64,000 nucleotides of DNA, from the sequence record FJ373894. One strand, given 5' to 3'. Numbering within the stretch: the first letter of the stretch is position 1; every line of letters begins with the position of its first letter. Shown here in pieces: positions 7,282 through 12,046 of this stretch. The stretch comes from Shigella phage Ag3. A program made the position numbers and the translations under genes. The notes beneath the pieces were generated by a model. It did no database searches and was not told where the DNA came from. It saw nothing but the letters and a program-made list of their open reading frames with translations.

Positions 7282-7809
7282 TCAGATACCGATAAATTCA
7301 TCAAAAGATCCAACAACCTTCTTCACTGAGATCTTGTCATTCTCAATCAGGAAGTTGCTGTCGTTTTTGGCTGCTGTGGCCCAGTCATCGGCAAGTTCGT
7401 TACCTTCGTGCCCCGCATGACCCTTAACCCATTTTAGTTCAACTTCACAAATTGAACAAACGAGATCATAGATTCTGAACAGATCTTTGATGAGTTCAAC
7501 GTTCTTGTCTGGGAAACCCTGATACTCCCACTTCGCTCGCCATTCGGTGACGCTCTTGATGGTGTATTGACTGTCAGACCAAATTGTTGCCTTTGGTATT
7601 CTGCGCTCACCCTTTCCTGAGAATGCCCACAGCAGCTTCAATGCGTTGGTCACACCCAACAACTCGGCGATGTTGTTGGTGGACGGGGGAGGTAGGTGAC
7701 CGAAGAACACCTTCCATTGCATACCCGATATTGGCCTGATGACAAATGCCCATCCTGCGGCCTGGTTGGTCTTCGGGTTAGAACCCCCGTCAGAATAAAT
7801 TTCTATCAT
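7282..7809 (-). CDS. rnhA: ribonuclease HI (RnhA-type)
   Basis: Motifs IEIYSDGGS, NNIAEL, IWSDSQY, KWVKGHAGHEGNELADDWA match E. coli RNase HI; start moved to ATG at 7809 (ORF track extends to 7905). Confidence 0.85.
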   Translation of the reverse strand: MIEIYSDGGSNPKTNQAAGWAFVIRPISGMQWKVFFGHLPPPSTNNIAELLGVTNALKLLWAFSGKGERRIPKATIWSDSQYTIKSVTEWRAKWEYQGFPDKNVELIKDLFRIYDLVCSICEVELKWVKGHAGHEGNELADDWATAAKNDSNFLIENDKISVKKVVGSFDEFIGI

Positions 7810-7810
7810 G

Positions 7811-7819
7811 ATATAAATA
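7811..7819 (+). promoter_or_regulatory. late-promoter-like box TATAAATAT
   Basis: About 36 nt upstream of plus-strand ATG 7855. Confidence 0.45.
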
Positions 7820-7854
7820 TCCCAAACTGGTTTTATAGAAAGAGGAATGAAACT

Positions 7855-8622
7855 ATGGCACCCCGCGCATATCGTTTCAGTCTCACCGCCCCGCAGATTG
7901 AGCAATTGCTCCTTTCTATCAATGATGCTATCAAGTCAGAAGATATCATCTATGATTATGCTGCAGGTGGGACTGTTGGGCAAGTCGCAGCAGCGTCTGC
8001 CGTCAAGAACATGTGGTTGAAGCTCAACGAGATGGTAACAGGCCAAGGCCTCAAAGATGCCATCAACGCTGCAGAAGACAGCAACGTGTTCACTGACTAT
8101 TATAAGTCTTTACTGGATCGCGAAGGCTGGAAATTTATTGGGTCTCCGGCAGATGAACTTGAGCGAGGCGACATCGACACCGCGAACTTCACGGGTGGTG
8201 AGGTCATTCTACTTCAGAAGAACGCTTCAGGCAACCCCGAATTCCAATACTGGAAGCGAACCCCGGTTGCTGGGGGTGATCCTACCTTTGCATGGGCTTC
8301 GGTCTATGAAGGGAACTCCAATGACTCTTCCATTGAGATCCCTGTGGTTGGCACCAGCGTACTCAAGGACATCCCCAAGGCGCTCTTCCATATGATCGAG
8401 TTCAGAGTGCATGTCTACGATGAGACACTGGGTCATTGGCAGGACACCGACGGAAAAGTAGGGTATCGTGGCGAGGATCTGTTCTACAGCGTCTACAACC
8501 ATGTTCAGACCAAACCTCTCGCCACCATTGACTTCAGTCAAGACACAGATAGCATGACAGTCTCTGTTACTTCCCTGGAGCCGAATGTCAAATGCCATCT
8601 GTCGTTTATCGCTGGTTACTAA
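7855..8622 (+). CDS. hypothetical protein, plus-strand late-type gene
   Basis: ATG at 7855 with AGAGGAA RBS and TATAAATAT late-promoter-like box at 7811-7819; ORF track extends upstream to 7696 (GTG start) but that region is antisense to RNase H. Confidence 0.6.
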   Translation: MAPRAYRFSLTAPQIEQLLLSINDAIKSEDIIYDYAAGGTVGQVAAASAVKNMWLKLNEMVTGQGLKDAINAAEDSNVFTDYYKSLLDREGWKFIGSPADELERGDIDTANFTGGEVILLQKNASGNPEFQYWKRTPVAGGDPTFAWASVYEGNSNDSSIEIPVVGTSVLKDIPKALFHMIEFRVHVYDETLGHWQDTDGKVGYRGEDLFYSVYNHVQTKPLATIDFSQDTDSMTVSVTSLEPNVKCHLSFIAGY

Positions 8623-10337
8623 ACCTCGAACACGGCATCAGTAAACCAAGCGGGGAAGAACTCTGGGTTGCGCATCATCAGTGATTCAAAAGAAGAATCA
8701 AGGATGTATGTCGCAGCCCAGTCATTCACGCCCCTGACCGAACGCCCGCACATCTGAACGATACGCAGTACCGCCATCCTGAAGTACGCCGATGGGTCTA
8801 CACTGTTGACGTGAGCCACCAGAGGATCACCAAGGTAATCGTATGGAACCTTGATCAAGATCTGAAATCGGCTGTAATCGCCTTTGAAGTCATACCCCTC
8901 TTCCATAGCCGGACTGGCGATGACACAAGGCGTCTTCGTCCGGAACGCGTGTTCCATGATGTCCATCAGAGCCTTACGAGTACGAGGAACGTGAATCATA
9001 TTCCGGTACTTACTGAACTTCTGTAGAGCCAGGGCGCGGTCATAACTTACTGTGTGAATGATACCAGACTGCCCAGGGTGGAATGCGATGATTTCATCCA
9101 CGTATTCGGCCAGCTTCTTCATCTCATAGTCACCCATGTTCGCCGTCATCTTCATGATGGGCATGTAGTTGACTTTCCGGTTCTCAATCGGGATAGGGTT
9201 GCCGATCTGAATCTTGTGGTACTCGCCCTCACGGATACCCAGTGACCGAGCGTACGAGTCAATCCCACAAATGGTCGCCGACATGTGAACGTGGTAGTCA
9301 CCCTTGCGGAACAGGCCGAACTGGGATACATCAGATGCGATGACAGGCTTGAACTGAATCATACCCTTGTCCTTCTCCTGCACGATGAAGGTGCTGGCGT
9401 TGGTCTGCCCCATGATCCCACAGTAGTCGCTGAGGTTGTGAAGGGTGTCAATGATGTCCGACAACTTCATCACCTGGGCTTCAGTCAGGCGCTCGTCCTC
9501 TACCAGTTCCTCAAGAGTTTCCAGCAGGGCTTCAACCTTGTCATGCAGGTCGTCAAATATCGAATGCATCTCGCCTGTTAGTGAGTACAGCTTGCCCAGC
9601 TCATAGTTCTCTGTGCGCCTGATGATATCCGTGATGGTCTCCACGATAGGCACTCCCTCGGGGATCGTAAGCAACCCCCTTACAGCATTTATACTGTATT
9701 CCATGATCGTGTGCTCTAGGAGCGTAGAGGGCATCTTATGGCACTCGTCAAGGATCAGCATATCGGCGCGGTTTTCCGGCTTCATACAGATCGTCGTGCA
9801 CATCTCCACCATCATGGCGGCGTTGGTGCAGCGCAGAGAAGAGATGTCCGTCCACTGACGACGCGCCTGAACATATGGACAACGATTCTTGTTACAGTGG
9901 CCATCTCGGCATGCCATACGGCACTGGATGGCGTTGTAATACAGGTCAGGGCTGATATGGCAACGATAGTTCTTCTTGCCCTTCAGGATGTCTATCGCCA
10001 CGGCTTTCTCCGCCGCATACTGATCCTGCAGACCTTTGGTCGGTGTTGTGATAGACGTGCGGAACTGGCCATATGGGTTGCGCTCAAGAACCAGATGGCG
10101 AAGCACATTATGAATGGTAGTGCCGATGAGGGATTTGCCCACACCAGTCGGAGCCTCGATGATCACGTGTTTGAATTTCTTATTCACAAGGGCATCAACG
10201 GCTTCAACGATGCATTCCATCTGTCCTGGGTTGGCGGTGTCGTATGGGAAGAACTCAGTGGCAAGAGACTTGATGCGGTCTATGCTAACTGGTCCGACGC
10301 CATCAAGCGCCTTGGTATATTGGTTGAATGCTGTCAC
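8619..10337 (-). CDS. SF2 DNA helicase, DinG/XPD(Rad3)-like with Fe-S cysteine cluster
   Basis: Walker A APTGVGKS, four-Cys cluster between Walker A and B, DECH box (LILDECH); GTG start with AGGAGG RBS. Confidence 0.75.
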   Translation of the reverse strand: MTAFNQYTKALDGVGPVSIDRIKSLATEFFPYDTANPGQMECIVEAVDALVNKKFKHVIIEAPTGVGKSLIGTTIHNVLRHLVLERNPYGQFRTSITTPTKGLQDQYAAEKAVAIDILKGKKNYRCHISPDLYYNAIQCRMACRDGHCNKNRCPYVQARRQWTDISSLRCTNAAMMVEMCTTICMKPENRADMLILDECHKMPSTLLEHTIMEYSINAVRGLLTIPEGVPIVETITDIIRRTENYELGKLYSLTGEMHSIFDDLHDKVEALLETLEELVEDERLTEAQVMKLSDIIDTLHNLSDYCGIMGQTNASTFIVQEKDKGMIQFKPVIASDVSQFGLFRKGDYHVHMSATICGIDSYARSLGIREGEYHKIQIGNPIPIENRKVNYMPIMKMTANMGDYEMKKLAEYVDEIIAFHPGQSGIIHTVSYDRALALQKFSKYRNMIHVPRTRKALMDIMEHAFRTKTPCVIASPAMEEGYDFKGDYSRFQILIKVPYDYLGDPLVAHVNSVDPSAYFRMAVLRIVQMCGRSVRGVNDWAATYILDSSFESLMMRNPEFFPAWFTDAVFEV

Positions 10338-10382
10338 TTTCTTCCTCCTATGGGATTCGCCTTTAGTTTAACCGATTCCCAG

Positions 10383-10414
10383 GAACGAAAAAGCCGGAGT
10401 ACAATGCTCCGGCT
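10383..10414 (-). terminator. rho-independent terminator after HU gene
   Basis: Hairpin AGCCGGAG-tacaatg-CTCCGGCT followed on minus strand by TTTTTCGTT; T-rich on plus side too. Confidence 0.7.
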
Positions 10415-10465
10415 TTCTCTTTTGTCACGCCCCGCGTTGCAGAGGCCGGACCGAACCAGGTTGAA

Positions 10466-10744
10466 TTACTTGCCGTTGGCAGCGTTCTTCAGACCTTCGC
10501 CCACTTTAAATTTCACAACGTTTTTCGCTTCGATCTGAATGGTCTGGCCGTTCAGAGGGTTACGACCTTCACGAGCTTCCTGGTGCTTCACTTCGAACGC
10601 GCCGAAGCCGACCAGCTGTACAGATGCGCCTGCAGCAACTGCAGTTTTAACGCCGTCGATAAAGGATGCCACTACTTTCTCCGCTTCGCCTTTGGTGATG
10701 TTCTGGGTCGAAGCAATGTGGGCAACAAATTCAGTACGATTCAT
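10466..10744 (-). CDS. HU/IHF-family DNA-binding protein
   Basis: 92 aa; MNRTEF..., GFGAFEV, REGRNP motifs of HU; GGAGAA RBS; strong terminator downstream. Confidence 0.9.
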   Translation of the reverse strand: MNRTEFVAHIASTQNITKGEAEKVVASFIDGVKTAVAAGASVQLVGFGAFEVKHQEAREGRNPLNGQTIQIEAKNVVKFKVGEGLKNAANGK

Positions 10745-10837
10745 CTGGATTTCTCCGTTGGGTTAATGTTTACTTTCATGTTCACTACAAGAGGACTACA
10801 GTTTAACTAAGAAATTTTATTGAATAAAGCGGAATTA

Positions 10838-11086
10838 TTAGCCTTTCGCCACGTCTTCAGTCGTCATCGTGCCATAACATCCGCAGCGTTCACAAATCAC
10901 TCTGACGCAAGGCTTAAAAGTCTGAACATTAGACACAGGAACGTTCACCGCCCTTGAAGAAACCTGCATTTCGCGGACTTCAACCCGTTGTTCGACCAGG
11001 CGCTCATCGTCCAAGAAGGTGATCGTCTTGTGAGGACAACGTATTGACGATTCACCAACCCAGATTATTGCCATGTTGGGACTCAT
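10838..11086 (-). CDS. hypothetical Cys-rich small protein
   Basis: 82-codon ORF with CPH...CERCGC motif; coordinates from ORF track (could not be reconciled to the base by eye). Confidence 0.4.
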   Translation of the reverse strand: MSPNMAIIWVGESSIRCPHKTITFLDDERLVEQRVEVREMQVSSRAVNVPVSNVQTFKPCVRVICERCGCYGTMTTEDVAKG

Positions 11087-11361
11087 GATTTGACCTCCGA
11101 TTTGGAGATTAACAATTCCATCTCTGCTCTGGTGACAATCGTTTCTACATGAACATCATCTATCAGCATCTCGTTCAGAAGATCGTACCCCAGGACTTGC
11201 ACACCAAAAGACTTTTTGTTCAGTTCTGACTCTATGTCGAGAACTCGCTGAACCGTTAGACCGCCGGAAGAGAATGGGACCGGATAGAAGGTGGAACGCA
11301 CTTGGGCACACCCATTCACGCTGTATCGAACCAGCAGGACATCACACCATACGCCAGCCAT
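11083..11361 (-). CDS. hypothetical protein
   Basis: 92-codon ORF, overlaps downstream gene. Confidence 0.4.
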   Translation of the reverse strand: MAGVWCDVLLVRYSVNGCAQVRSTFYPVPFSSGGLTVQRVLDIESELNKKSFGVQVLGYDLLNEMLIDDVHVETIVTRAEMELLISKSEVKS

Positions 11362-11362
11362 G

Positions 11363-12046
11363 TTACACCTCCACCGCGTGAGACTTCAGGAGTTCATCAA
11401 TCGCTTTCTGTCCCATATAAGAGAATGGGGTGCGCTGGTAGAATGCCCACAGAACCAACTGAACGACAGCGCGGGAACGGGTTTCGGCTCGCATCACCAG
11501 GTCGCTGAAATGAGGAGACTGCGCCGTCCATTGGATCTCTTCGCCCAGGTCTTGATTACAGGTCACGGAGATGCGGAACTTGTTGCACAGATTGTCGACT
11601 TCTTTGTACGCATCGGTAGACACCCGAAGTTGGTCTGCATGCGCCCATGGTGTCGTGACGATTCTTTCACCCATCACTTTATCAGAGATAAACCAATCAA
11701 TGGATTCAACAAACTTGCCGAAATGGTCGATGCGATAAATGCAGTCTCCCCCTTCCATAGAACGCATGGCATGATAGCGAGCGTCGATTTCGTTGTTGTG
11801 CATCGCGTTGAAGTCGATGAACACGCGACGCGCCAACACAACATCTTCCGGCTCCAGAGGGATGTATTCCCCTTCGTTGCTAGACCTCCGGATGTTCGGA
11901 TAATGTAGAATGCCGCTTAAATGCCCAGTGCAATATACATAACGAGGTCCAACACCCCCGACACGAGCATGAGCGACATAGGATGGTTCTGTGAATCGCA
12001 AGTGGCCTTGATCGGCACCGACGATAATAGAATAAAGTTTTTCCAT
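11363..12046 (-). CDS. hypothetical protein
   Basis: ORF 11363..12061; start at 12046 after conserved GAGAGACTATATC motif; terminator hairpin upstream. Confidence 0.55.
   Translation of the reverse strand: MEKLYSIIVGADQGHLRFTEPSYVAHARVGGVGPRYVYCTGHLSGILHYPNIRRSSNEGEYIPLEPEDVVLARRVFIDFNAMHNNEIDARYHAMRSMEGGDCIYRIDHFGKFVESIDWFISDKVMGERIVTTPWAHADQLRVSTDAYKEVDNLCNKFRISVTCNQDLGEEIQWTAQSPHFSDLVMRAETRSRAVVQLVLWAFYQRTPFSYMGQKAIDELLKSHAVEV

What the first reader, a model, noticed from the sequence alone, without database searches (positions are those of the whole stretch)
8619..10744. Fe-S DinG/XPD-like helicase and HU homologue in the replication/recombination region
Neither is a T4 core gene. The helicase has a four-Cys cluster between Walker A and the DECH box, typical of Rad3/XPD/DinG. 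The adjacent HU gene has its own strong bidirectional terminator. Together they suggest a phage-specific DNA-processing function.
Basis: partly seen in the sequence, partly recalled or inferred. Interest (0 to 1): 0.5.

Follow-up and report, generated by a model that had tools for sequence, protein, structure and literature searches.

The report
Phage Fe-S helicase and HU genes
The two genes are real: a DinG/XPD-type helicase with a conserved four-cysteine (iron-sulfur type) motif, and a separately transcribed HU-type DNA-binding protein. Both are ordinary, already annotated, conserved genes of Vi01-like (Ackermannviridae) phages and not a new system.

Summary
ORF 8619-10337(-) encodes a 572-aa SF2 helicase. 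Four cysteines (C126, C139, C148, C153) lie between Walker A and DECH and are invariant in 119 of 119 homologues. Three align with the positions recalled as the Fe-S ligands of E. coli DinG. The AlphaFold model (pLDDT 90.7) matches DinG and XPD structures best. ORF 10466-10744(-) is a canonical 92-aa HU protein. A hairpin terminator with compensatory changes across genera lies between the two genes.

The window is an Agtrevirus-like Ackermannviridae phage, not a T4 phage. Proteins 98-100% identical are already deposited as "DNA helicase"/"DinG" and "DNA-binding protein HU-beta". The helicase is not host-derived: 20% identity to E. coli DinG, and its nearest cellular relatives are in Deinococcota and methanogens.

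The terminator and a candidate promoter separate the two genes. Their adjacency is lost in the marine and Acinetobacter relatives examined. A joint function is therefore not supported.

Most likely the helicase is a 5'->3' accessory helicase for replication and recombination intermediates; this lineage has no detectable Dda. HU is probably a general architectural protein.

One weak lead: in PhiW-14 and SH-Ab 15599 the helicase lies one to two ORFs upstream of a 5-hmdU DNA kinase-family gene. Interest is low.

The parts
8619..10337 (-). XPD/DinG-family SF2 helicase CDS (572 aa, GTG start)
   Evidence: ORF. Pfam Helicase_C_2, DEAD and ResIII. PHROG 2488 'DNA helicase', E 4.9e-261. Profile against PDB: DinG 3.3e-19, XPD 6e-14. 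Foldseek top hits are DinG and XPD. Same coordinates and length as RefSeq P46FS4 ORF69.
10131..10154 (-). Walker A / motif I, APTGVGKS (aa 62-69)
   Evidence: Translation. P63, G65, G67 and K68 are invariant in 119 homologues. Aligns with DinG P55-K60.
9879..9962 (-). Predicted Fe-S cluster segment, CHISPDLYYNAIQCRMACRDGHCNKNRC (aa 126-153). Invariant C126, C139, C148, C153; C143 is present in only 42/119 homologues.
   Evidence: C126, C148 and C153 align with E. coli DinG C120, C199 and C205; C143 aligns with C194.
9738..9749 (-). Motif II, DECH (aa 197-200)
   Evidence: Translation. D, E and H are invariant; C in 111/119. Aligns with DinG DEGH 248-251.
9333..9725 (-). Mostly helical insertion between motifs II and III (aa ~205-335), in the position of the Arch domain of XPD/DinG
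   Evidence: Secondary structure of the AF2 model: helices 217-311 and strands 316-331, pLDDT 85-96. Full-length structural matches to DinG and XPD.
8643..8945 (-). Helicase_C_2 domain (aa 465-565) with motif V (EGYD) and motif VI (QxxGRxxRG)
   Evidence: Pfam PF13307, 46.7 bits against a cutoff of 25.3. Invariant G481, D483, Q528, G531, R532, R535 align with DinG G597, D599, Q652, G655, R656, R659.
10344..10349 (-). Shine-Dalgarno AGGAGG of the helicase
   Evidence: Sequence; AGGAG is conserved in six genera.
10365..10372 (-). GTTAAACT, candidate -10-like element of a helicase promoter located after the terminator
   Evidence: One of only two occurrences in 64 kb. Conserved as GGGTAAACT in four relatives and TACAAT in Serratia phage KNP4. 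Promoter function is inferred only.
10390..10416 (.). Intrinsic terminator hairpin between HU and helicase, with an A-run upstream and a T-run downstream (two-way in form)
   Evidence: Covariation over six genera. Annotated as a terminator in Klebsiella phage May.
10466..10744 (-). HU-family DNA-binding protein CDS (92 aa)
   Evidence: Pfam PF00216, E 5.9e-30, full length. PDB HU and IHF matches, E 1e-22 to 1e-14. G46, F47, R58, G60, N62 and P63 are conserved. 100% identical to a deposited phage protein.
10783..10831 (-). Conserved ~50-nt block upstream of HU (contains GTTAAACT at 10800-10807); candidate HU promoter or regulatory region
   Evidence: Nearly invariant across Agtrevirus, Limestonevirus, Kuttervirus and Taipeivirus, although the gene upstream differs in each. 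Function not shown.

Best explanation
Two independent, conserved, probably pre-late genes of an Ackermannviridae (Agtrevirus-like) phage.

(1) Helicase. It is a compact member of the XPD/Rad3/DinG group of SF2 helicases.
- Shown: all helicase motifs are present. Four invariant cysteines sit in the Fe-S position. There is an Arch-like insertion, and the predicted fold is DinG/XPD-like.
- Inferred from the family: it binds a [4Fe-4S] cluster. It moves 5'->3' on single-stranded DNA, which it threads between the Fe-S, Arch and motor domains. It unwinds forked, D-loop or R-loop structures.
- Inferred role: an accessory helicase for phage replication and recombination. It would clear R-loops, D-loops or bound proteins ahead of the fork, the job done by Dda in T4 and DinG in E. 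coli. This lineage has gp41-, gp59- and UvsW-like proteins but no detectable Dda. Across Ackermannviridae the gene stays beside RNase HI, gp55 and the gp47/gp46 nuclease.

(2) HU. It is a canonical HU-type dimeric DNA-bending protein, made from its own short transcription unit that ends at the hairpin. It most likely acts as a general architectural factor on phage DNA (compaction; help with replication, recombination or transcription).

The two genes are neighbours by conserved gene order in the enterobacterial branch, not an operon.
For: Family identity:
- Pfam, NCBIfam and PHROG hits.
- Profile against PDB: DinG 3.3e-19, XPD 6e-14.
- AF2 model pLDDT 90.7, pTM 0.89. Foldseek: 6fws DinG 1.6e-27, then F. 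magna DinG, XPD and CasDinG.

Cysteines:
- Invariant in 119/119 homologues and in more distant phage and bacterial relatives.
- Aligned to DinG C120, C199 and C205.

Replication context:
- Gene order helicase - (opposite-strand gene) - RNase HI (PF00075) - gp55 - gp47 - gp46 in the window, P46FS4, Vibrio K474 and Vibrio YC.
- In a Rhizobium phage the gene lies between primase, exonuclease, dCMP deaminase and DNA polymerase.
- tblastn with T4 Dda finds nothing in the window or the whole P46FS4 genome (best E 0.92). The helicases annotated there are gp41-like, UvsW and this one.

Separate units:
- Terminator with covariation, followed by a conserved -10-like element and a strong RBS.
- Conserved upstream block for HU.

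HU:
-.
Against: - No biochemical or genetic data for this clade turned up in the searchable literature.
- Metal content, polarity and substrates are extrapolated from DinG/XPD at 16-20% identity.
- I could not measure Cys-Cys distances in the model, because coordinates are not exposed.
- Which cysteine is the second ligand (invariant C139, or C143 at the DinG C194 position) is unresolved.
- 'Dda replacement' rests on absence of a BLAST hit plus polarity inferred from the family.
- Promoter assignments are weak consensus matches, and expression timing is unknown.
- The best non-PHROG profile hit is a PADLOC 'type IV-A CRISPR-associated DinG' model (E 1.9e-51). Its meaning is unclear.
Confidence: 0.7

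Rival explanations
1. The helicase works with the post-replicative thymidine hypermodification pathway of these phages. It would open or remodel newly replicated 5-hmdU DNA for the 5-hmdU DNA kinase and the enzymes that follow. The HU homologue would be a TF1-like protein that prefers modified phage DNA.
For: - In PhiW-14 the helicase is followed, after one 120-aa ORF, by a PF18723 HMUDK_hel protein (E 5.8e-26).
- In SH-Ab 15599 (alpha-dapT DNA, PMC13458397) it is followed, after two small ORFs, by a P-loop protein related to the Ackermannviridae 5-HMUDK (BLASTP E 5e-4, same phrog_800).
- Ackermannviridae carry 5-NeOmdU, and modification occurs at or just after replication (PMC5889632).
- Some depositors label the HU gene 'transcription factor 1'.
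Against: - In the window's own lineage the kinase (P46FS4 ORF117, PF18748, E 3e-107) is about 35 kb from the helicase.
- The two distributions do not coincide. M6/YuA-like Pseudomonas phages have the kinase but do not appear among helicase hits. Rhizobium, haloarchaeal and Lak phages have the helicase but do not appear among kinase hits.
- Five ViI proteins, none a helicase, reconstitute 5-NeOmdU in lysates (PMC5889632).
- The HU is no closer to TF1 (38%) than to ordinary HU (40-52%) and lacks the TF1 C-terminal tail.
Confidence: 0.1
2. The helicase is a repair enzyme in the XPD sense. It would verify damage or unwind around lesions, working with the phage DenV-type glycosylase and nucleases, rather than helping replication forks.
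For: - The fold and motifs are shared with XPD.
- The relative P46FS4 encodes an 'endonuclease V N-glycosylase UV repair enzyme' about 6.5 kb away. It also encodes the SbcCD-like gp46/47 and a RuvC-like resolvase.
Against: - No TFIIH- or UvrABC-like partner is present.
- DenV is not adjacent to the helicase.
- The synteny is with RNase HI, gp55 and gp46/47, or in other phages with primase and polymerase.
- Bacterial family members such as DinG act mainly on R-loops and D-loops (established knowledge).
Confidence: 0.12
3. HU and the helicase form a functional pair. HU would bend or mark DNA (for example at an origin) to load the helicase.
For: - The HU-helicase adjacency, with a gap of about 128 bp, is kept in Agtrevirus, Limestonevirus, Kuttervirus and Taipeivirus, although the gene upstream of HU changes (coordinates).
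- The Miltonvirus KNP4 intergenic region aligns with the others, but its HU gene was not checked.
Against: - A conserved terminator and a separate candidate promoter lie between them.
- HU is missing beside the helicase in Vibrio, Aeromonas, Acinetobacter, Delftia and Rhizobium phage relatives.
- HU homologues occur in many phages without this helicase, for example Ralstonia, Bacillus and Burkholderia phages.
Confidence: 0.08

Closest known systems
E. coli DinG (PDB 6FWR/6FWS), a [4Fe-4S] 5'->3' SF2 helicase that unwinds R-loops and D-loops
   Same: - Best sequence and fold match.
- Same motif order, and the same Cys positions C120/C199/C205.
- An Arch-like insertion and a Helicase_C_2 domain.
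   Different: - Only about 20% identity.
- NCBIfam DinG score 67 bits against a cutoff of 598.
- 572 aa against 716 aa. DinG's roughly 70-residue insertion between the first and second cluster Cys is absent.
- The invariant second Cys (C139) is four residues upstream of the DinG C194 position.
- Motif II is DECH instead of DEGH.
- No close relative turned up in Enterobacterales genomes.
Archaeal and eukaryotic XPD/Rad3 (e.g. Thermoplasma XPD 4A15, 2VSF)
   Same: - Four-domain fold, with Foldseek E 1e-18 to 1e-23.
- Profile E 6e-14.
- More distant haloarchaeal virus homologues are annotated 'Rad3-related DNA helicase'.
   Different: - The Cys spacing is compact (28 residues), unlike the wider XPD spacing.
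- No TFIIH partners.
- 15-16% identity.
T4 Dda (SF1B 5'->3' accessory helicase)
   Same: - Proposed analogous role as a non-replicative 5'->3' helicase in a phage with T4-like replication and recombination genes.
- Dda is undetectable in this lineage.
   Different: - Unrelated superfamily with no sequence similarity.
- The analogy is inference only.
CasDinG (Csf4) of type IV CRISPR systems, and a PADLOC 'CAS-IV-A associated DinG' model
   Same: - The PADLOC model PDLC01439 matches the full length, E 1.9e-51.
- Fold matches to CasDinG structures.
   Different: - The core Csf4 models hit only weakly (28.6 and 19 bits).
- No cas genes are annotated in the closest relative, P46FS4.
- Solved CasDinG proteins lack the Fe-S cysteines (established knowledge).
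Bacterial HU (E. coli HU-beta; Bacteroidota HU) and SPO1 TF1
   Same: - Full-length Bac_DNA_binding fold.
- Conserved G46, F47, R58, G60, R61, N62 and P63 of the DNA-binding arm.
   Different: - 40% identity to host HU-beta, 52% to Bacteroidota HU, and 38% to a TF1 orthologue (Bacillus phage Goe19).
- Gln replaces Arg at position 55.
- Lacks the TF1 C-terminal extension.

Membership tests
XPD/Rad3/DinG Fe-S SF2 helicases | SF2 motifs I, Ia, II (DExH), III (SAT), V and VI (QxxGRxxR) in order | tested here: met
   Invariant columns in 61- and 119-sequence alignments. Each aligns with the corresponding E. coli DinG residue.
XPD/Rad3/DinG Fe-S SF2 helicases | C-terminal Helicase_C_2 domain (PF13307) above the Pfam gathering score | tested here: met
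   46.7 bits against a cutoff of 25.3, E 4.8e-12.
XPD/Rad3/DinG Fe-S SF2 helicases | Four conserved cysteines inserted in motor domain 1 between motifs Ia and II | tested here: met
   C126, C139, C148 and C153 in 119/119 homologues. Kept in distant phage relatives and bacterial relatives. C126, C148 and C153 align with DinG C120, C199 and C205.
XPD/Rad3/DinG Fe-S SF2 helicases | Arch-type insertion between motifs II and III, and an overall four-domain fold | tested here: met
   AF2 model pLDDT 90.7. The Foldseek top 40 hits are almost all DinG, XPD or CasDinG, TM-score (query-normalised) up to 0.68.
XPD/Rad3/DinG Fe-S SF2 helicases | Pfam DEAD_2 (PF06733) N-terminal model | tested here: inconclusive
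   No hit for this protein. One of the 120 listed homologues carries it (P0063). The region is too diverged for that model, and this is a detection aid rather than a biochemical criterion.
XPD/Rad3/DinG Fe-S SF2 helicases | Actual [4Fe-4S] binding, ATP-dependent 5'->3' unwinding | not testable with these tools
   Needs purified protein. Cys geometry in the model could not be read either, because coordinates are not exposed.
Orthologue of host DinG or YoaA | Reaches the NCBIfam equivalog cutoff, or is close to enterobacterial sequences | tested here: not met
   DinG 67 bits against 598; YoaA 57.9 against 680. 20% identity to E. coli DinG. The best genomic relatives are Trueperaceae/Deinococcales and Methanobacteriaceae at 26-30% identity, and a Glaciecola MAG at 37%.
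CasDinG / type IV CRISPR helicase | Match to the Csf4 core models, and a neighbouring type IV cas operon | tested here: not met
   Csf4 models reach only 28.6 and 19 bits. The strong hit is to an 'associated' model. No cas genes are annotated in the P46FS4 genome.
HU/IHF family (Bac_DNA_binding) | Full-length PF00216 domain with the arm residues (R58, R61, N62, P63) and G46-F47 | tested here: met
   E 5.9e-30, 1-90 of 90. Residues seen in the alignment. 36 PDB HU/IHF/TF1 matches.
SPO1 TF1-type (hmU-DNA-preferring) HU | Specific relatedness to TF1 and the TF1 C-terminal extension | tested here: not met
   TF1 E 2e-10 against HU 5e-19. 38% identity to the TF1 orthologue against 52% to Bacteroidota HU, and no C-terminal tail. 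Preference for modified DNA is not testable here.
Intrinsic (Rho-independent) terminator | GC-rich hairpin followed by a U-run, conserved by structure | tested here: met
   95% of cells paired and 3 of 7 pairs with compensatory changes; slid controls 36-69% paired. Actual termination was not tested.

The most novel reading that the evidence does not exclude
The XPD/DinG-like helicase is a replication-coupled helper of thymidine hypermodification. It is possibly adapted to track along DNA carrying bulky cationic 5-hmdU derivatives. The co-conserved HU homologue would be a modified-DNA-preferring chromatin protein, analogous to SPO1 TF1. The lead is the helicase - small ORF(s) - 5-hmdU DNA kinase-family gene order in PhiW-14 and SH-Ab 15599. 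All named close homologue carriers have hypermodified thymine.
Probability: 0.1. Interest if true: 0.6.

Novelty: already known. Interest (0 to 1): 0.15.

Why it matters
There is little consequence as it stands. Both genes are annotated in hundreds of Ackermannviridae genomes and belong to well-understood protein families.

- **Useful output:** a cleaner annotation. The helicase is a compact Fe-S DinG/XPD-type enzyme with predicted ligands C126/C139/C148/C153. It is not host-derived. HU is a separate, terminator-bounded unit.
- **Why the clade might still be worth a look:** I found no experimental work on this phage helicase clade in the searchable literature. These phages are used for typing and biocontrol, so the enzyme would be a convenient small model for Fe-S helicases.
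- **What would raise interest:** confirmation of the link to 5-hmdU hypermodification genes seen in PhiW-14 and SH-Ab 15599.

Tried and rejected
- **Recent capture of host DinG or YoaA: rejected.** Scores are far below the equivalog cutoffs, identity is 20%, and no enterobacterial relatives appear.
- **HU is an orthologue of SPO1 TF1, as some depositors label it: rejected**.
- **HU and helicase form one operon: rejected.** A terminator with covariation and a conserved downstream -10-like element separate them.
- **HU-helicase adjacency is a general feature of the helicase family: rejected**.
- **Strict co-occurrence of the helicase with 5-HMUDK: rejected**.
- **A Dda homologue hidden in the genome: not found**.
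- **TATAAATA at 7812-7819 as a T4-type late promoter for the convergent gene: not above chance.** It is the only hit in 64 kb, and 43 of 100 shuffles give at least one.
- **GTTAAACT as a general phage promoter motif: not supported.** Only 2 exact and 8 relaxed matches occur, and the others were not checked against gene starts.
- **Literature on this clade:** searches for an Ackermannviridae transcriptome or for biochemistry of phage XPD/DinG helicases returned nothing relevant. The Ackermannviridae review does not mention either gene.
Full report
**What the window is**

Megablast of 8000-11500 finds 250 phage records. The best are Agtrevirus and related Ackermannviridae (Shigella phages Gloob and MK-13, Salmonella phages P46FS4 and SKML-39) at 95-97% identity. 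The RefSeq record of P46FS4 annotates the two ORFs as 'DNA helicase' (ORF69) and 'DNA binding protein' (ORF68). They lie between RNase H, gp55 and gp47/gp46 on one side and small hypothetical genes on the other. The phage shares T4-like replication and late-transcription genes but belongs to the Vi01-like family. A table in PMC10892097 lists 'putative ATP-dependent helicase' and 'putative DNA binding protein' after 'Ribonuclease' among conserved Vi01-like proteins.

**The observation**

ORF 8619-10337(-) encodes 572 aa from a GTG that follows AGGAGG.
- Walker A (APTGVGKS) is aa 62-69 and DECH is aa 197-200.
- Eight cysteines lie between them.
- The segment C126-x12-C139-x3-C143-x4-C148-x4-C153 is at 9879-9962.

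ORF 10466-10744(-) encodes a 92-aa protein that matches Pfam Bac_DNA_binding over its whole length (E 5.9e-30).

Between the two genes, at 10390-10416, lies a GC-rich hairpin with an A-run before it and a T-run after it.
- The scan lists it as a terminator on the + strand.
- The minus-strand reading has GCCGGAG/CTCCGGC followed by TTTTTCGTT.
- The centroid hairpin is -21.6 kcal/mol, and the 61-nt stretch folds at -24.6 kcal/mol, z = -2.8.

All three parts of the observation are confirmed.

**Is the cysteine cluster conserved?**

A database search returned 286 homologues, of which the best 120 were retrieved. In an alignment of the 119 sequences of at least 500 aa:
- C126, C139, C148 and C153 are invariant.
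- C143 is present in only 42.
- The Walker A glycines and lysine, and D, E and H of motif II, are invariant (a 61-sequence alignment).

The four cysteines persist in other relatives:
- Acinetobacter, Vibrio, Aeromonas and Rhizobium phage proteins down to 31% identity.
- Bacterial chromosomal relatives at 28-30%.
- Archaeal relatives keep the first, second and fourth. They carry other cysteines in a longer insert where the third should be, which resembles the wider XPD spacing.

I added E. coli DinG, taken from NC_000913, to the family alignment. C126 pairs with DinG C120 (context GKKNYRC against GRGRYVC). C148 pairs with C199, C153 with C205, and the non-conserved C143 with C194 (the same register appears). 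From memory of the DinG literature, C120, C194, C199 and C205 are the [4Fe-4S] ligands. Hence three invariant cysteines sit at known ligand positions, and the fourth (C139) lies four residues before the remaining one.

**Family and fold**

Sequence evidence:
- Pfam gives Helicase_C_2 (the DinG/XPD C-terminal domain), DEAD and ResIII.
- NCBIfam gives only sub-threshold DinG, YoaA and rad3 hits.
- PHROG 2488 'DNA helicase' matches at E 4.9e-261.
- A family profile hits DinG (3.3e-19), Thermoplasma XPD (6e-14), Rad3/XPD and FANCJ in the PDB.

Structural evidence:
- An AlphaFold model built on 61 sequences has mean pLDDT 90.7 and pTM 0.89. A helical insertion lies between motifs II and III, where XPD and DinG carry the Arch domain.
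- Foldseek ranks E. coli DinG first (1.6e-27). Next come Finegoldia DinG, XPD, CasDinG and S. aureus DinG; unrelated SF2 helicases appear only from about rank 45.

Membership in the XPD/Rad3/DinG group is therefore well supported. Metal binding and polarity cannot be tested here.

**Origin**

- Identity to host DinG is 20%.
- The nearest relatives in 185,579 species genomes are a Glaciecola MAG contig (37%), many Trueperaceae/Deinococcales chromosomes (26-31%) and Methanobacteriaceae (26-29%). None of the 80 loci returned is from Enterobacterales.
- Among phages the family is broad. It occurs in Ackermannviridae of enterobacteria and vibrios, Aeromonas TSW001, Acinetobacter SH-Ab 15599 and Delftia PhiW-14. 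It also occurs in Rhizobium and Agrobacterium phages, haloarchaeal tailed viruses (annotated 'Rad3-related') and megaphages.

It is an old phage and cellular subfamily, not a recent capture.

**Are HU and the helicase a unit?**

The pair, with a gap of about 128 bp, is kept in Agtrevirus, Limestonevirus, Kuttervirus and Taipeivirus, although the gene upstream of HU differs in each: a hypothetical gene, SPFH, endolysin, or superinfection exclusion. The intergenic region of Miltonvirus KNP4 aligns as well, but its HU gene was not checked. The intergenic hairpin is conserved by structure:
- 95% of cells pair.
- 3 of 7 pairs show compensatory changes.
- Slid controls pair at 36-69%.

After the hairpin comes a conserved TGGGAATCGG(G/T)TAAACT element (TACAAT in KNP4) and then the RBS. 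HU has its own nearly invariant 50-nt upstream block. The simplest reading is two transcription units, with HU monocistronic.

Outside the enterobacterial branch HU is not next to the helicase:
- Vibrio K474 and YC, and Aeromonas TSW001, have other small genes there.
- SH-Ab 15599 has DexA overlapping the helicase start.
- The Rhizobium phage has dCMP deaminase.

What does stay with the helicase in Ackermannviridae is the block of an opposite-strand ~250-aa gene, RNase HI, gp55 and gp47/gp46. A joint HU-helicase function is therefore not supported.

**HU itself**

It has the conserved G46, F47, R58, G60, R61, N62 and P63 of the DNA-binding arm, and Gln replaces Arg at position 55. Identities are 40% to E. 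coli HU-beta, 38% to a TF1 orthologue (Bacillus phage Goe19) and 52% to Bacteroidota HU. It lacks the TF1 C-terminal extension. The depositor label 'transcription factor 1' is not specifically justified. HU homologues at 60% identity or more occur in about 268 records, essentially the enterobacterial Ackermannviridae. P46FS4 also has a second 'histone family DNA-binding' gene elsewhere in its genome.

**Likely function**

The whole genome of P46FS4 carries four relevant annotated genes: a gp41-like primase/helicase, a gp59-like loader, UvsW and this helicase. T4 Dda finds nothing by tblastn (best E 0.92, on PhoH).

By family analogy the enzyme should move 5'->3' on ssDNA and unwind forks, D-loops and R-loops. 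Its conserved place beside a true RNase HI (PF00075, E 4.6e-25) and the recombination nuclease fits an accessory role at replication and recombination intermediates. That is the niche Dda fills in T4 and DinG fills in E. coli. Everything beyond family membership is inference.

**A lead that does not fit the ordinary picture**

- In PhiW-14 the helicase is followed by a 120-aa ORF and a PF18723 '5-hmdU DNA kinase, helical domain' protein.
- In SH-Ab 15599, whose DNA carries alpha-diaminopropanylthymine (PMC13458397), it is followed by two small ORFs. After those comes a P-loop protein related to the Ackermannviridae 5-hmdU DNA kinase.
- In this lineage, however, the kinase lies about 35 kb away, beside the thymidylate-synthase-like gene.
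- The kinase and helicase distributions do not coincide.
- Five ViI proteins without a helicase suffice for modification in lysates (PMC5889632).

I rate a functional link at about 10%.

**Verdict**

The features are real and correctly recognised. They are conserved, already annotated genes of a known phage family and members of well-known protein families. I found no experimental work on this phage helicase clade. Interest is low.

Noticed in passing
L100 6001-8982 (PhiW-14); L002 7291-10845 (SH-Ab 15599): In two thymine-hypermodifying phages the helicase homologue lies one to two small ORFs upstream of a 5-hmdU DNA kinase-family gene. In PhiW-14 this is PF18723. In SH-Ab 15599 it is a P-loop kinase relative in phrog_800. 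In SH-Ab 15599 the helicase start also overlaps the end of a DexA exonuclease gene.
   Followed up: partly
L014 17830-18492 (P46FS4 ORF117) and orthologues: The 5-hmdU DNA kinase (PF18748, E 3e-107) is widely mis-annotated as 'terminase small subunit', in records that also carry a real T4-like gp16.
   Followed up: partly
window 10390-10416 against L012 (Dickeya phage phiD3): The terminator stems are identical, but the 7-nt loop is the reverse complement (CATTGTA against TACAATG). This looks like a hairpin-loop inversion between closely related phages.
   Followed up: no
window 10365-10372 and 10800-10807 (- strand): GTTAAACT occurs only twice in 64 kb. Both copies are on the coding strand just upstream of the helicase and of HU. 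Related forms (GGTAAGCT, GGGTAAACT, TACAAT) are conserved in other genera. They may be -10 elements of an early or middle promoter class that the CBA120 paper (PMC3184105) says is still undefined.
   Followed up: partly
window 7855-8622 (+): A 255-aa gene, called a structural protein in relatives, converges on the helicase. Their 3' ends overlap by 4 nt and no terminator lies between them. A transcript from it would run antisense through the whole helicase gene until the + strand form of the hairpin at 10390-10416. An opposite-strand gene occupies this position in Vibrio phages K474 and YC too. The TATAAATA at 7812-7819 is not above chance.
   Followed up: partly
window 8619-10337 (-): The strongest curated non-PHROG profile hit is PADLOC PDLC01439, 'typeIV_DinG, CAS-IV-A; associated' (E 1.9e-51, full length). 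Core Csf4 models hit only weakly. The composition of that model could not be inspected.
   Followed up: no
L020-L098 (genome contigs): The nearest cellular relatives of the helicase are chromosomal genes in many Trueperaceae/Deinococcales genomes and in Methanobacteriaceae. Their genomic neighbourhoods were not examined.
   Followed up: no
window 7282-7905 (-): The mechanical ORF for RNase HI starts at a TTG (207 aa). Relatives annotate a 175-aa protein, which corresponds to an ATG start at window 7809.
   Followed up: no
L015 3599-4099 (P46FS4 ORF167, outside the window): A second gene, annotated 'histone family DNA-binding' (166 aa), lies about 2.3 kb from rIIB. These phages may therefore encode two nucleoid-type proteins.
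   Followed up: no
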